A DNA stretch of 64,000 nt from Candidatus Bipolaricaulota bacterium (GCA_026390345.1 JAPLGD010000072.1:1128-65127), one strand, 5' to 3'. Counted from the first letter of the stretch, positions 51,111 through 56,400 are shown. Notes: generated by a model from the sequence alone, not told the origin. A program made the numbers and translations.

Positions 51111-52103
51111 ATGAATCGCGCGACAAGAACCTTCGGGATAGCGTTGATTGTTATCGTGGCAGCCGCGTCACTCGGGGGAGTTGCGACTCCCGTGTCGTCG
51201 CGGTACGTCGACGTCGAGGTCGAGGTCTTCCGGTCCTGGGGCCTGTTTGGGCTCGGCACGTGGGAGGCGCTCGACGCGCGTTTCGTGTCCATGGACATCG
51301 CGCGTCTTGAGGCGTCCGATCAGGGCCAGCTTGAAGAGATCGTAGGCGGTTGCCAGAGCGGAGCGTGGAGCGAACTCAGTTCGTGCTCGGCGCTCGCGAC
51401 CGTCCAGTACATGTTCGAGCGGCACTATGCCGTGGAGCCGGTCCTCGGATCGCTCTACCGGGTCACCCTCACGAACCGGACCACAGGTCTGCTCGGCGTC
51501 GTGCTAGCGATCGACGGTCTGAACACGAACGGCAGCGCCGAGGTGACCGGGACCGTCAAGGACAAGAAGTGGATCCTCCTGCCGAAGCAGACCGTGCGGA
51601 TCACAGGGTGGCAGGTGAGCTCGGATGAAGCGTTGCAGTTCCGGTTTGCGACGCCAAGTCAGGCCCACTCCTCGCTAGACGCGCTGCGCGGCTCGATCCG
51701 CGTCTACGTGTACCTTCCGGATCCGCGTGGCAACGCAGCCAAGGGGACTGGAGCCGGAGCGGTGATCGACCAACCCACAATCCAGATCCCTTTCACGTCC
51801 GCGACGTCCCTCCCGATCGACGCGGTCGCCCTGACCTACGCGCGTACGTCGGTGTCACTCGGCATTCTGTGTGAAGAGACGGGCGGGACGGGAATCCGGA
51901 TCAGCTCGGTCGTCGCCGGGACTATCGCCGAGTTGCGCGGCCTGCGCGCCGGTGATGTGATCACCTACGCGAACGGCGTTCCCGTCAACACGTGCGCCGA
52001 CCTCGCCGCGTACCTCGCCACACGGCGCGCCGGGGACCGCGTGGTCCTCAAGGTCCACCGCGCCGACGCGGTCCTCCTCATCACCCTGGAGTTGGAGGAG
52101 TAG
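51111..52103 (+). CDS. Secreted protein with an N-terminal signal/anchor, an unknown domain, and a C-terminal PDZ domain.
   Basis: RBS AAGGGGGA then ATG. N-terminus MNRATRTFGIALIVIVAAASLGGVA. C-terminal PDZ motif GIRISSVVAGTIAELRGLRAGDVITYANGVPV. Confidence 0.7.
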   Translation: MNRATRTFGIALIVIVAAASLGGVATPVSSRYVDVEVEVFRSWGLFGLGTWEALDARFVSMDIARLEASDQGQLEEIVGGCQSGAWSELSSCSALATVQYMFERHYAVEPVLGSLYRVTLTNRTTGLLGVVLAIDGLNTNGSAEVTGTVKDKKWILLPKQTVRITGWQVSSDEALQFRFATPSQAHSSLDALRGSIRVYVYLPDPRGNAAKGTGAGAVIDQPTIQIPFTSATSLPIDAVALTYARTSVSLGILCEETGGTGIRISSVVAGTIAELRGLRAGDVITYANGVPVNTCADLAAYLATRRAGDRVVLKVHRADAVLLITLELEE

Positions 52104-55100: not shown

Positions 55101-56400
55101 TCCACCCCACTCCTGCTTCGATGCACGGCGAATCGAGCCGCAAGGACACATCACCCGACGGAAGGTCCGCGAACTCGGGAGCCGCGGCGACGTCCGACGG
55201 CCGCCGAGTGGTTCCCTCGTAGTCCGTCCCGTTTCCCCAGACGCAGTTGTGCGAGAAGGTGCGAACGCTCGATGCGTCACCGGAGTCGTCGACCCTCAGA
55301 CCGGCACCGCCGTTGTACGCCAGGATGCAGTGCTCAACCTGCGCATCGCCACAGGAGATCCGCACGCCATCCCCGGTGTTCCGCGCCACCGTCGAGTACG
55401 TAAGCCCGCATCGAGCCGTCGACTCGAAGACCACCCCGTCGCCGCCTCCCACGATCTCGCACCCTCGTACCGAGATCGATGCCGCGCCCGCCGCGTGGAA
55501 AGAGATCCCATCCACGAACCTGACTTGTCCGCCGTCGACCGTGCACACCGCTTCGTCCTCGCACGAGACGGCAACGCCGCCCCCTTCAACGCGGAGGAGG
55601 GTGAATACCCCGGTCGCACGGCTCGTCAGGCGGACTGCATACCCCACGTTGTCCGTGAGGGTCAGATCGCTCGCGACGATCCCCGCGTCGTCGCCGACGA
55701 GGATCCCGTGCGTCGCGTGCCCAGCGATCTCGCACCCGTCGAGAGAGGCGGTCGCGCTCGACTCGAGGACGACTCCGCCCCCCGCGTTGTCCTCGAATCG
55801 CGATCCGGACGCGCCGAGTCGGGCGTCGTCTTCCGCCAGAACGCCGGCCTCTTCGTTTCCCTGGATGGTGCAATCGTCGAGGGTGACGCTCGCCCCGTCG
55901 TGGACCCAGATTCCTGCGCCCGCGTTGTCTTCGATCGTCACCGAGTCGAACGTCAGGTCGGAGGTCACCTCCCCGACGTCGACGCCGGGGCCCACGGCGC
56001 CCGCGATCACGCAGTCGACGAGAGCCGCCGACCCCGCCGTGACCGCGACGGTCGAACCCTCGAGGATGGACGGCGCGCGCTCGATCGTCATTCCTTCGAT
56101 CCGCCCCGAGCTCACGTGATCGATGACCAGCACGGGATCGAATCCGTACGAGTAGCGGACGACCGTCTGCTGGGGCCCCGCGCCCACGACGGTGACGCCA
56201 TCCTTGAGCGCCACCTGTTCCTCGTAGACCCCGCCCGCGACCCAAATGACGTCGCCGAAGGCCGCCGCGTCCATCGCGCCCCGAATCGTCCGGTAGTCGG
56301 CCGACCCGTCCGGGGAGACGAGGAGTTCGGTGGCCGTCGCCAGGAGCGGGGCTGTCAGCAGGAACACGGCGCAAGCGCCGACTCGAAACACGGCTCGCAT
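52081..56400 (-). CDS. Giant secreted multidomain protein (1439 residues). Domain order is signal peptide, right-handed parallel beta-helix repeats, a central beta-rich region, three PKD domains, a caspase-like peptidase C14 domain, a fourth PKD domain, and a C-terminal tail.
   Basis: Trimmed to ATG 56400 (MRAVFRVGACAVFLLTAPLLATA). Recurrent beta-helix motifs (DCVIAGA, DNAGAGIWV, GNEEAGVL). PKD motifs WDFGDG (three times) and WSFGDG. Caspase dyad VTFSGHG ... LFDGCYSGG following an N-terminal VVIGISDY. The 208-codon upstream extension of the ORF was rejected. Confidence 0.8.
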   Translation of the reverse strand: MRAVFRVGACAVFLLTAPLLATATELLVSPDGSADYRTIRGAMDAAAFGDVIWVAGGVYEEQVALKDGVTVVGAGPQQTVVRYSYGFDPVLVIDHVSSGRIEGMTIERAPSILEGSTVAVTAGSAALVDCVIAGAVGPGVDVGEVTSDLTFDSVTIEDNAGAGIWVHDGASVTLDDCTIQGNEEAGVLAEDDARLGASGSRFEDNAGGGVVLESSATASLDGCEIAGHATHGILVGDDAGIVASDLTLTDNVGYAVRLTSRATGVFTLLRVEGGGVAVSCEDEAVCTVDGGQVRFVDGISFHAAGAASISVRGCEIVGGGDGVVFESTARCGLTYSTVARNTGDGVRISCGDAQVEHCILAYNGGAGLRVDDSGDASSVRTFSHNCVWGNGTDYEGTTRRPSDVAAAPEFADLPSGDVSLRLDSPCIEAGVGWTTIGAHEDPSTTSSWAVELVSSASRGWFGETWHADLRLSGFPAAIDSLDLGLRYDKGGVQLDIESTVLGSLNRRVAASGSVKNVWRQGGDAEALTVQYGFAGVLESDESWGAVWGLASLDGGPVEASLRLATNWPSPHLASRLKLDFALASWGLETSLAAVDVTLTALGVAVSQGVGVGARSLRLEERVQLLPDRVAAASAQWAGDGWDWTGLVEIGKQAWRLRLALADRGFSVTGKARFVGSSFSEGSVFAAASLGSVTLSGELVLSVDDGPRVATGIAFDPTAWLRRPPNEPPIPTFSALPADPEAGTPVQFRAAGSSDPDGEIRAVWWDFGDGAVAEGASVDHAYATAGVYDVVLTVSDDRGAAVSLTLPVTVWPADTSPVATFIAVAVSEGGVRLPRGPRAGDRVLLDASESSDTDGSVVEYSWDFESDGVIDAVSSDSMIVAPALAAGPQPITLRVVDDTSRSDAVMRVVLIDRAEPPRAAFSFTPPTPAIQDPVYFSDRSVDTDGSVVAWTWDFGDGRSSRDASPVHRFPVEGQYAVKLTVRDSDGLEATEARSVLVSPTPEIVPVDEVWAVVIGISDYAQVKDLQYGRDDAIAMCRWLLDSGVAEDHIRLLLDSEVPVAELPGVAPHVASLVNVREALGWLRRVAGEDDLVLVTFSGHGFQGDDDNGDEKDGVDEFFVLVDTSAAAVEDTALRDDEFGRFLDRLESNHVLVLFDGCYSGGLSRSLPSSKRPIGDRPDLFSDFALEGRLVLSAAAEAQEAFESPELGHGVFTYFVIEGLRGAADLNGDLRVTAWELYEYVARAVPERVRRERGAVQEPQLAGEGEVRVLLATADQPPAAAFTYGPDLPYAGALVRFADQTRVARTPVTYAWSFGDGATSTDSSPTHAYVVEGEYTVELRVTDSRGMAGNATSHVAVGPAGQVLSIDAATGSILVSLGEENGLRAGDRFESSGGRSELEVVELVGGGTAACRILRGDPPAVGDILHPLPADAATPTPPTPG

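What the first reader, a model, noticed from the sequence alone, without database searches (positions are those of the whole stretch)
51111..56400. A giant secreted caspase (C14) protein with beta-helix and PKD domains is convergent with a PDZ-domain secreted protein
The 1439-residue protein has a cleavable signal peptide and about 440 residues of right-handed beta-helix repeats. It then has a beta-rich central region of about 330 residues and three PKD domains. A caspase-like domain follows with an intact His/Cys dyad (FSGHG ... DGCYSGG) and an acidic insertion. A fourth PKD domain and a tail complete it.

Extracellular caspase-like proteases fused to carbohydrate-binding/adhesion-type beta-helix and PKD modules are rare and poorly characterised. 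The 3' ends of the giant gene and of the PDZ protein gene (51111..52103) overlap by 23 nt. Both proteins contain the motif GLRAGD. The PDZ protein could be a partner, substrate-tether or inhibitor.
Basis: partly seen in the sequence, partly recalled or inferred. Interest (0 to 1): 0.7.

Follow-up and report, generated by a model that had tools for sequence, protein, structure and literature searches.

The report
Outer-membrane-anchored giant metacaspase of Bipolaricaulota
The 1439-residue exported protein is a real, probably active caspase-family protease found across a whole deep-branching bacterial phylum. Its unannotated middle is predicted to be a membrane-spanning beta-barrel, so it is probably anchored in the outer membrane rather than freely secreted. 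Its link to the neighbouring PDZ protein is plausible but unproven.

Summary
Window 52081..56400(-) encodes a 1439-aa protein: signal peptide, right-handed beta-helix, three PKD domains, a C14 domain, a fourth PKD and a small tail. It converges on a 330-aa exported PDZ protein (51111..52103) with a 23-nt overlap.

The His/Cys dyad aligns with the catalytic residues of yeast metacaspase Yca1 and is invariant in 26 orthologs. The "acidic insertion" is the normal metacaspase acidic segment. Both S1-pocket Asp positions are kept, so Arg/Lys specificity is expected.

Both genes were found only in Bipolaricaulota (Acetothermia). They are adjacent in 25 of 25 species loci. However, the whole housekeeping block is equally syntenic, so adjacency alone does not show partnership. 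The shared GLRAGD motif is not conserved and not homologous.

Verdict: a new variant of a known kind. Topology, substrates and the PDZ link remain inferred.

The parts
56407..56434 (-). Promoter of the giant gene: TTGTGG (56429..56434), a 16-nt spacer, then TACAAT (56407..56412) ending 6 nt before the ATG. No Shine-Dalgarno sequence, so a leaderless mRNA is inferred.
   Evidence: TACAAT lies at -12..-7 in all 26 orthologs, with TTG 17-18 nt upstream. TAYAAT-N6-ATG occurs only once in the 64-kb window, against 0.03 expected.
52081..56400 (-). Giant gene, 1439 aa plus stop codon.
56332..56400 (-). Signal peptide, aa 1-23 (MRAVFRVGACAVFLLTAPLLATA / TE).
   Evidence: Read directly from the sequence. 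The n-h-c layout is conserved in 26 orthologs. No dedicated signal-peptide predictor was available.
55081..56331 (-). Right-handed parallel beta-helix (CASH/NosD type), aa 24-440.
   Evidence: Pfam Beta_helix 6e-30 and NosD 5e-11. Identity between distant species is 32-41%.
54235..55080 (-). Predicted transmembrane beta-barrel, aa 441-722: 19 amphipathic strands joined by loops of 2-6 residues.
53401..54234 (-). Three PKD (Ig-like) domains, aa 723-1000.
   Evidence: Pfam PKD_4/PKD in four stretches in total, plus K319L-like_PKD at aa 840-902. Identity between distant species is 47-61%.
52591..53400 (-). Peptidase C14 (metacaspase/orthocaspase-type) domain, aa 1001-1270. Key residues: His1098 (53107..53109), Cys1156 (52933..52935), and S1-pocket Asp1030 and Asp1154.
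   Evidence: Pfam C14 scores 45.2 bits against a cutoff of 21.4. Alignment to Yca1 (4f6o) has E 1.4e-10 with SGHG and D-x-C-x-SG in register. The dyad and acidic segment are invariant in 26 orthologs. Identity between distant species is 61-74%.
52336..52590 (-). Fourth PKD domain, aa 1271-1355.
   Evidence: This domain is absent from ortholog L024.
52084..52335 (-). C-terminal small beta-rich domain (contains GLRAGD) followed by a Pro/Thr-rich end, aa 1356-1439.
   Evidence: Conserved pattern SLG..nGv.vGDrF...lEV.El...aACR. No Pfam hit. The only PDB matches are weak hits to PDZ domains, E 0.013. It is not homologous to the neighbouring PDZ protein by hhalign.
51111..52103 (+). PDZ protein gene, 330 aa. 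Signal peptide aa 1-25 (51111..51185), unassigned beta-rich N-domain aa 26-246 (51186..51848), HtrA-type PDZ aa 247-330 (51849..52100).

Best explanation
**What it is.** The gene encodes a Sec-exported protein that is integrated into the outer ('toga') membrane of a Bipolaricaulota (Acetothermia) bacterium. A central, short-looped beta-barrel of about 19 strands does the anchoring. Two soluble arms flank the barrel:
- an N-terminal CASH-type beta-helix;
- a C-terminal arm of three PKD domains, a catalytically competent metacaspase/orthocaspase-type C14 protease, a fourth PKD domain and a small beta domain.

**How it likely works.** The protease uses His1098 and Cys1156. It keeps the two Asp residues of the metacaspase S1 pocket, so it should cleave after Arg or Lys rather than Asp.

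The caspase domain is as conserved as the flanking housekeeping enzymes, whereas the helix and barrel evolve fast. I therefore infer that it processes conserved endogenous envelope or exported proteins, rather than serving as a nutritional or cell-death protease.

**The PDZ neighbour.** This is a separately transcribed, Sec-exported periplasmic protein with an HtrA-type PDZ domain and a lineage-specific N-domain. It may recognise substrates or the giant protein itself. That link is not demonstrated.

**Shown:** gene models, domain content, catalytic residues in register, phylum-wide conservation and adjacency.

**Predicted:** the barrel.

**Inferred:** membrane location, which arm faces outward, P1 specificity, substrates and the PDZ partnership.
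For: **Domains and dyad.**
- Pfam assigns the helix, PKD, C14 and PDZ domains.
- Alignment to Yca1 puts SGHG and D-x-C-x-SG in register.
- The dyad, both pocket Asp residues and the acidic segment are invariant in 26 orthologs.
- The S1-pocket and Ca-site residues of TbMCA2 are defined in PMC4357240 and PMC6426788.

**Barrel.**
- AF2 predicts 19 consecutive antiparallel strands.
- Strands show one hydrophobic face and one charged face.
- All 18 loops are short, with only small length differences between species.
- Amphipathic alternation in the family alignment supports all 19 strands.

**Host biology.**
- Bipolaricaulota are diderm, with a toga-like outer membrane and an S-layer (bioRxiv 10.1101/2025.11.21.689855).
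- They encode an outer-membrane 'surface antigen' protein, which I take to be Omp85/BamA-type, although the paper does not name the family (PMC6092417).

**Conservation between distant species.**
- Caspase domain 61-74%.
- Beta-helix 32-41%.
- Barrel 24-32%.
- For comparison: GlnRS 66-77%, RtcB 57-71%, LigT 45-54%.

**Pairing and distribution.**
- The two genes are convergent in 25 of 25 loci, with gaps from -23 to +282 nt apart from one locus interrupted by an assembly gap.
- Both families are lineage-specific.
- Both proteins carry signal peptides.
Against: - The barrel rests on one AF2 model built from only 10 sequences. pTM is 0.59, and the first strand has pLDDT of about 50-60.
- No sequence similarity to any known outer-membrane protein family was found.
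- No clear BAM beta-signal could be identified.
- All known bacterial outer-membrane barrels have an even strand number, so a 19-strand count is suspect.
- The topology is undetermined. Loop lengths do not distinguish the two faces of the barrel.
- PDZ adjacency is no stronger than adjacency to the unrelated LigT gene.
- The giant's C-termini are not PDZ-ligand-like.
- The residue aligned with the fourth metacaspase Ca2+ ligand (the Asp seven residues after the catalytic Cys in Yca1) is Ser here. That this position is TbMCA2 Asp220 is my own numbering. Ca2+ dependence is therefore uncertain.
- There are no activity or localisation data.
Confidence: 0.55

Rival explanations
1. The protein is a freely secreted or S-layer-associated soluble protease or adhesin. 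On this reading the central region is a soluble beta-rich spacer and the predicted barrel is an artefact of a shallow alignment.
For: - Beta-helix and PKD modules are typical of secreted and surface proteins.
- The barrel model comes from 10 sequences, with pTM 0.59.
- There is no sequence hit to any outer-membrane protein family.
Against: - Nineteen regularly spaced amphipathic strands with 2-6-residue turns persist across species that share only 24-32% identity.
- The hydrophobic and charged faces alternate as in porins.
- I know of no soluble closed barrel of this size (my own knowledge, not searched here).
Confidence: 0.2
2. The protein is a self-exporting, autotransporter-like system. The barrel translocates one flank to the cell surface: either the N-terminal beta-helix, as in type Va, or the C-terminal Ig-like/PKD-protease arm, as in type Ve intimin/invasin. 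The caspase domain may then release it by autoprocessing.
For: - Beta-helix followed by barrel mimics classical autotransporters.
- Barrel followed by Ig-like repeats mimics inverse autotransporters.
- A low-confidence linker of about 20 residues precedes strand 1.
Against: - There is no Pfam hit to the Autotransporter or inverse-autotransporter beta-domains.
- The predicted barrel has about 19 strands, not 12.
- It lies in the middle of the protein, with large folded domains on both sides.
- No cleavage site has been identified.
Confidence: 0.15
3. The PDZ gene is only a syntenic neighbour with an independent periplasmic function, such as general quality control. It is not a partner, tether or inhibitor of the caspase protein.
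For: - The two genes are convergent and have separate promoters, one leaderless and one with a Shine-Dalgarno sequence.
- The unrelated LigT-archease-RtcB-CofD-DnaE genes are just as invariably adjacent.
- GLRAGD is not conserved or homologous.
- The giant's C-termini are variable.
- Ortholog L024 lacks the fourth PKD domain and the tail but keeps the PDZ neighbour.
Against: - Both are lineage-specific exported proteins found only in this phylum.
- They remain adjacent while the genes upstream of the PDZ gene (dcd, pyr) come and go.
- A protease without a PDZ domain next to a PDZ protein without a protease domain resembles a split HtrA or Ctp arrangement.
Confidence: 0.45
4. The protein is a cytoplasmic programmed-cell-death or anti-phage caspase-like effector, of the kind associated with gasdermin, EACC1 or NLR-like systems.
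For: - PADLOC gives a generic 'caspase' hit, E 3e-17.
- NCBIfam caspase_w_EACC1 scores 69 bits.
Against: - The EACC1 score is below the NCBIfam cutoff of 140.
- The protein has a signal peptide and extracytoplasmic modules.
- No NTPase, gasdermin or sensor genes lie nearby; the neighbours are housekeeping genes.
- It is single-copy, syntenic and conserved at housekeeping level across the phylum.
Confidence: 0.03

Closest known systems
Bacterial metacaspase-like proteases / orthocaspases (MEROPS C14B; e.g. Microcystis MaOC1, Geobacter GSU0716 PDB 3BIJ, yeast Yca1, T. brucei MCA2)
   Same: - Same catalytic fold and His-Cys dyad.
- Acidic S1 pocket, with Asp at the two positions matching the GC-x-ND and D-x-C motifs of Yca1, which I equate with TbMCA2 Asp95 and Asp211.
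- The acidic DE-x-DG-x-DE segment follows the catalytic His.
- Prokaryotic members are known to carry varied extra domains and putative signal peptides (PMC3501461).
   Different: - This protein is exported and about 1440 aa long.
- It is fused to a beta-helix, four PKD domains and a predicted transmembrane barrel.
- The nearest caspase domains outside the phylum are only about 35-39% identical. They sit in small proteins of about 250-480 aa.
- The fourth Ca2+ ligand position is not kept.
Type V secretion: classical (Va) and inverse (Ve, intimin/invasin) autotransporters
   Same: - Signal peptide.
- A beta-helix located N-terminal to a barrel, as in Va.
- A barrel followed by Ig-like repeats with a functional tip domain, as in Ve.
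   Different: - Autotransporter barrels have 12 strands and lie at one end of the protein.
- Here the barrel has about 19 strands, is central, and is flanked by large domains on both sides.
- There is no sequence match to the autotransporter beta-domains.
Chaperone-usher pathway ushers (FimD/PapC)
   Different: - Ushers have a 24-strand barrel with a plug.
- Both of their flanks are periplasmic, and they function in pilus assembly.
- There is no sequence relationship, and ushers have no protease domain.
Mitochondrial 19-stranded barrels (VDAC, Tom40, Mdm10)
   Same: - Same predicted strand number.
- Very short loops on both faces.
- Similar barrel size, about 270-280 residues.
   Different: - No sequence similarity was detected.
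- The resemblance may reflect only barrel size and short loops.
- This is a bacterial protein with large flanking domains.
- No claim of homology is made.
HtrA/DegP, Ctp/Prc and RseP PDZ domains; GspC-like architecture
   Same: - The neighbour's PDZ domain is of the bacterial protease-associated type.
- The layout of N-terminal hydrophobic segment, beta domain and C-terminal PDZ recalls GspC.
   Different: - There is no protease domain.
- The N-domain shows no similarity to the HtrA trypsin fold.
- The N-domain matches no Pfam family.
- The NCBIfam GspC models match only the PDZ part and score below their cutoffs.
PorU and gingipains (clan CD proteases acting at the outer membrane in type IX secretion)
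   Same: These are clan CD cysteine proteases that work at the outer membrane or cell surface on endogenous exported proteins. They serve as an analogy for a housekeeping envelope-processing role.
   Different: - They belong to a different family (C25, not C14).
- They are tethered through partner barrels rather than an in-chain barrel.
- The analogy comes from general knowledge and was not tested here.

Membership tests
Peptidase C14 (caspase/metacaspase superfamily) | Pfam PF00656 match above the gathering score | tested here: met
   45.2 bits against a cutoff of 21.4, covering aa 1009-1259 and profile positions 3-223 of 233.
Peptidase C14 (caspase/metacaspase superfamily) | Catalytic His and Cys at the homologous positions | tested here: met
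   FSGHG aligns with YSGHG of Yca1, and FDGCYSG aligns with FDSCHSG. Both are invariant in 26 orthologs.
Metacaspase/orthocaspase subfamily (C14B): basic P1 specificity | Two Asp residues lining the S1 pocket (TbMCA2 Asp95 and Asp211) | tested here: met
   Asp1030 aligns with the Asp of GC-x-ND, and Asp1154 precedes Cys1156 as in D-S-C. Both are conserved in orthologs. The residue roles come from PMC4357240 and PMC6426788. Actual specificity was not tested.
Metacaspase (type I/II/III) | Complete four-Asp Ca2+ site and a p10 domain with the 280-loop | tested here: inconclusive
   The acidic DE-x-DG-x-DE segment is conserved, but the position aligned with the fourth ligand is Ser. The match to Yca1 covers only the p20 part. 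The C-terminal half fits the general bacterial C14 profile.
NCBIfam NF047832, EACC1-associated caspase | Score above the curated cutoff | tested here: not met
   69.4 bits against a cutoff of 140. No EACC1 or NTPase genes lie nearby.
Outer-membrane beta-barrel protein | Closed antiparallel amphipathic barrel with a hydrophobic exterior | tested here: met
   [not shown]
Outer-membrane beta-barrel protein | Physical residence in the outer membrane and BAM-dependent assembly | not testable with these tools
   This needs fractionation or proteomics, for example in the cultured strain J31.
VDAC/Tom40-like 19-stranded barrel | Odd strand number with parallel pairing of strands 1 and 19, and Porin_3 sequence signature | tested here: inconclusive
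   [not shown]
Type Va / Ve autotransporter | 12-strand terminal beta-domain (Pfam Autotransporter or inverse-autotransporter beta-domain) | tested here: not met
   No such Pfam hit at E <= 0.01. The barrel is central and has about 19 strands.
PDZ domain (neighbouring protein) | Pfam PDZ match and PDZ fold | tested here: met
   [not shown]
HtrA/DegP serine protease (neighbouring protein) | Trypsin-fold protease domain with a Ser-His-Asp triad | tested here: not met
   No Trypsin Pfam hit. hhalign of the N-domain against the HtrA family gives probability 0.3%.
Functional caspase-PDZ gene pair | Co-occurrence beyond what background synteny explains | tested here: inconclusive
   The genes are adjacent in 25 of 25 loci, but the flanking unrelated genes are equally conserved. 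Both families are restricted to the same phylum.

The most novel reading that the evidence does not exclude
The central domain is a genuine 19-stranded, short-looped outer-membrane barrel. That architecture has so far been reported only from mitochondrial VDAC, Tom40 and Mdm10. The odd strand number would place the beta-helix and the PKD-metacaspase arm on opposite faces of the toga membrane without any traversing linker. On this reading the protease is a housekeeping envelope-maturation enzyme of a deep-branching phylum, and it works together with the periplasmic PDZ protein.
Probability: 0.15. Interest if true: 0.85.

Novelty: new variant of a known kind. Interest (0 to 1): 0.6.

Why it matters
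- **Function of prokaryotic caspase homologs.** These proteins are abundant, but only a few cytoplasmic examples have a known function. This one is exported, probably membrane-anchored, single-copy, and as conserved as tRNA synthetases across a whole phylum. That points to a constitutive envelope role rather than cell death or defence.
- **Architecture.** I know of no described outer-membrane protein or type V secretion class with the layout of beta-helix, central barrel, Ig-like repeats and protease. This rests on my own knowledge of those classes, not on a systematic search.
- **Strand count.** If the predicted odd strand number is real, it would be the first bacterial example of a barrel type thought to be unique to mitochondria.
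- **Testability.** A first isolate of the phylum has been reported (strain J31, bioRxiv 2025), so localisation and substrates can now be tested.

Tried and rejected
1. **Sequence annotation of the three unassigned regions.** The central region, the tail and the PDZ N-domain gave no Pfam hit even at E <= 10. Profile searches against PDB sequences gave nothing for the centre. The tail gave only marginal hits to PDZ domains, E 0.013.
2. **Remote homologs of the barrel.** A profile search of 1.84 billion representatives found about 13 full-length proteins of 1285-1460 aa with the barrel at the same position, which I take to be orthologs. The other hits were short fragments or repetitive multi-stretch matches.
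3. **Caspase-domain search.** This returned fragments and small caspase-like proteins rather than more full-length orthologs. Orthologs were recovered instead from the genome scan seeded with the PDZ family.
5. **GLRAGD as a shared functional motif.** Rejected.
6. **The giant's C-terminus as a conserved PDZ ligand.** Not supported.
7. **Inferring barrel orientation from loop length or variability.** Uninformative, because all loops are short on both faces.
8. **Defence-system reading.** Rejected.
9. **Technical limits.** The afdb50 fold library was unavailable. No terminator or sigma-70 consensus site was found by the simple scan.
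Full report
**1. Observation**

The minus-strand ORF runs from ATG 56400 to the stop at 52081 and gives 1439 aa. The plus-strand ORF 51111..52103 gives 330 aa. Their 3' ends overlap by 23 nt.

Both have the codon-position GC pattern of real genes in this ~66% GC window, with GC3 of 0.80-0.81. 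Both also have many orthologs.

Pfam confirms the stated architecture:
- Beta_helix/NosD in the first ~440 residues.
- Four PKD stretches.
- Peptidase_C14 at aa 1009-1259, above its gathering score.
- A PDZ domain at aa 250-328 of the neighbour.

The surrounding genes are housekeeping:
- Upstream of the PDZ gene: GlnRS, pyrK/pyrD/pyrF-like genes and dcd.
- Beyond the giant gene: LigT, archease, RtcB, a CofD-family gene and DnaE.

**2. Origin and distribution**

Named relatives are MAGs of Candidatus Bipolaricaulota, Bipolaricaulis or Acetothermia. A few are deposited as Thermotogota or Atribacteria.

A scan of one genome per GTDB species, seeded with the PDZ family, returned 30 loci. Wherever enough flank is present, the giant gene lies immediately downstream and convergent. 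This holds in 25 of 25 loci. The gaps range from -23 to +282 nt, apart from one locus interrupted by an assembly gap.

The same loci also keep LigT-archease-RtcB-CofD-DnaE on the other side of the giant gene. Upstream of the PDZ gene, dcd and the pyr genes come and go. The pair is therefore universally conserved in the sampled phylum, but so is its unrelated neighbourhood. Adjacency alone cannot prove a functional link.

Both families are lineage-specific:
- PDZ-family hits fall from E 1e-74 straight to E 1e-7, where only generic HtrA PDZ domains remain.
- A profile of the giant's central region finds about 13 full-length proteins of similar size with the barrel at the same position, plus a few fragmentary or repetitive hits, among 1.84 billion representatives.

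**3. The caspase domain**

phmmer against PDB sequences aligns the domain to yeast metacaspase Yca1 at E 1.4e-10. It also matches Candida and Arabidopsis metacaspases, Geobacter GSU0716 and T. brucei MCA2.
- FSGHG aligns with YSGHG, and FDGCYSG aligns with FDSCHSG. His1098 and Cys1156 are therefore at the catalytic positions.
- The 'acidic insertion' GDDDNGDEKDGVDEF aligns without gaps to TEDLDGDEEDGMDDV of Yca1. It is the normal metacaspase acidic segment.
- The two Asp residues that give metacaspases their Arg/Lys specificity are TbMCA2 Asp95 and Asp211 (PMC4357240, PMC6426788). They correspond to Asp1030 and Asp1154.
- All of these residues are invariant in 26 orthologs.
- The position aligned with the fourth Ca2+ ligand is Ser, so Ca2+ dependence is uncertain.

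Conservation is uneven across the protein:

| Region or protein | Identity between distant species |
|---|---|
| Caspase domain | 61-74% |
| GlnRS (flanking housekeeping gene) | 66-77% |
| RtcB (flanking housekeeping gene) | 57-71% |
| PKD domains 1-3 | 47-61% |
| Beta-helix | 32-41% |
| Central region | 24-32% |

The caspase domain is by far the most conserved part of the protein. This argues for an active enzyme acting on conserved substrates.

The NCBIfam EACC1-type caspase model scores below its cutoff. PADLOC gives only a generic caspase hit. Outside the phylum, the nearest caspase domains are ~35-39% identical. They belong to small caspase-like proteins, many from soil and sediment metagenomes, with named examples from Rokubacteria, NC10 and Desulfobacterales.

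**4. The central region is a predicted membrane barrel**

Residues ~441-722 have no Pfam or PDB sequence match.

AlphaFold2 was run on an alignment of the window protein and nine orthologs. Mean pLDDT is 73.5, rising to 85-91 over the second half. The model has 19 consecutive antiparallel strands joined by turns of 2-6 residues.

- Then 18-stranded OccD/OpdQ (15.7) and AlgE (14.5), followed by TonB-dependent receptors, ushers and polysaccharide-export barrels.

Checks made directly on the sequences agree with the model:
- Within strands, one face is hydrophobic (for example VLISV, LSLLFL, VALLTW) and the other is charged or polar (QDETL, ARKDA, ESRAN).
- All 18 connections are short, and their lengths differ little across 25 species.
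- Amphipathic alternation in the family alignment coincides with all 19 predicted strands.

The host phylum is diderm. It has a toga-like outer membrane and an S-layer. It also encodes an outer-membrane 'surface antigen' protein, presumably of the Omp85/BamA type.

The most economical reading is that the protein is anchored in the outer membrane by an in-chain barrel. It is not released as a soluble enzyme.

The strand count should be treated with caution. The first strand has low confidence. Known bacterial barrels are even-stranded, and 19-stranded barrels are described as exclusive to mitochondria (PMC7586230). No sequence similarity to Porin_3 proteins was found.

**5. The PDZ protein**

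The AF2 model has pLDDT 87.8. It shows an N-terminal hydrophobic helix, a ~220-residue beta-rich domain containing a helical hairpin, and a C-terminal PDZ domain.
- The N-terminal helix looks like a signal peptide. An Ala-X-Ala-like site is conserved in the family.
- The N-domain has many invariant polar residues and two conserved Cys pairs.
- It matches no Pfam family and is not related to the HtrA protease domain.

The gene has a strong Shine-Dalgarno sequence and, in many lineages, its own upstream TATAAT box.

**6. The proposed link between the two proteins**

GLRAGD does occur in both proteins.
- In the giant's tail the motif varies freely among orthologs.
- Profile-profile comparison of the tail with the PDZ family finds nothing, probability 1.5%.
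- A shared hexamer arises in 7% of shuffles.
- The giant's extreme C-termini are variable and rich in Pro and Gly. This is unlike the hydrophobic C-terminal ligands of HtrA-type PDZ domains.
- One ortholog (L024) lacks the fourth PKD domain and the tail altogether, yet keeps the PDZ neighbour.

A partnership remains attractive. Here a protease without a PDZ domain sits beside a PDZ protein without a protease domain. Both are exported, and both are confined to the same phylum. Even so, the link is an inference.

**7. Regulation**

All 26 orthologs carry TACAAT exactly 6 nt upstream of the ATG. A TTG-containing hexamer lies 16-18 nt further upstream, and there is no Shine-Dalgarno sequence. TAYAAT-N6-ATG occurs only once in the whole window. 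The giant gene is therefore probably translated from a leaderless mRNA. This also fixes its start codon.

**8. Mechanism, rivals and verdict**

*Best explanation (confidence ~0.55).* This is an outer-membrane-anchored, Arg/Lys-directed metacaspase-type protease of the Bipolaricaulota envelope. It probably processes endogenous exported proteins.

The orientation of the arms is open:
- An odd-stranded barrel would put the beta-helix and the protease arm on opposite faces.
- The faster evolution of the helix and the slow evolution of the protease arm would fit helix-out and protease-in.
- An usher-like topology, with both arms periplasmic, remains possible.
- An autotransporter-like topology, with one arm exported through the pore, also remains possible.

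*Rivals.*
- A soluble secreted protease with an artefactual barrel prediction (~0.2).
- A self-exporting autotransporter-like protein (~0.15).
- A defence or cell-death caspase (~0.03).
- Separately, the PDZ gene may be merely syntenic (~0.45).

I found no paper in the searchable library that describes this family.

I rate it a new variant of a known kind, with interest 0.6. The most novel reading not excluded is a true bacterial 19-stranded barrel carrying a housekeeping envelope metacaspase, at about 15% probability.

Noticed in passing
window 56398..56434 (-): An invariant TACAAT lies exactly 6 nt upstream of the giant gene's ATG in all 26 orthologs. A TTG-type -35 element lies 16-18 nt further upstream, and there is no Shine-Dalgarno sequence. 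This points to a conserved leaderless transcript. The arrangement occurs only once in the 64-kb window.
   Followed up: yes
window 51056..51110 (+) and loci L001-L033: The convergent PDZ gene uses the opposite mode of translation initiation. It has a strong Shine-Dalgarno sequence, AAGGGGGA, 4-6 nt before the ATG. Many lineages also have a CACTATAAT box about 30-35 nt upstream.
   Followed up: partly
window 56512..59026 (+): An RNA-repair cluster, LigT (2',3'-cyclic phosphodiesterase family), archease and RtcB, lies divergent from the giant gene. It is syntenic in every species locus. The archease ORF (roughly 57090..57508, with a DHTADL motif) is hidden inside a longer spurious ORF in the mechanical ORF list.
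   Followed up: partly
L024 about 10981..14883 (-); P0287 (1285 aa): One lineage has a shorter ortholog that ends just after the caspase domain and lacks the fourth PKD domain and the tail. It still keeps the PDZ neighbour at a 5-nt gap.
   Followed up: partly
C-termini of orthologs in L002, L003, L019, L023, L025-L027, L029, L030, L032: One clade carries a conserved Pro-Cys motif 4-7 residues from the C-terminus (for example PPCAPIE, PPCFRTP, DPCSPTR). The motif is absent from the window's clade. Its meaning is unknown; a disulfide or an attachment site are possibilities.
   Followed up: no
window 51111..52103 and 52081..56400: Besides GLRAGD, the two proteins share the 6-mers AAASLG and RAGDRV and nine 5-mers, against about one 5-mer expected from shuffles. 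All are built from the abundant residues A, G, L, R and D. They probably reflect composition and common turn motifs rather than homology.
   Followed up: partly
L005 (JBDKUT010000062.1), L029 (SPBW01000033.1) and several 'uncultured Thermotogae' records: MAGs that carry this Bipolaricaulota-specific gene pair in the same synteny are deposited as Thermotogota or Atribacteria. These are probably taxonomic mislabels.
   Followed up: no
PDZ protein aa 26-246 (window 51186..51848): The N-domain of the PDZ protein has an unusually dense set of invariant polar residues: R117, N122, D135, N138, D151, K153, W167, S183, T213, Q221 and T223. It also has a Cys81-Cys92 pair and no detectable relatives outside the phylum. 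This suggests a specific binding or catalytic site of unknown nature.
   Followed up: partly
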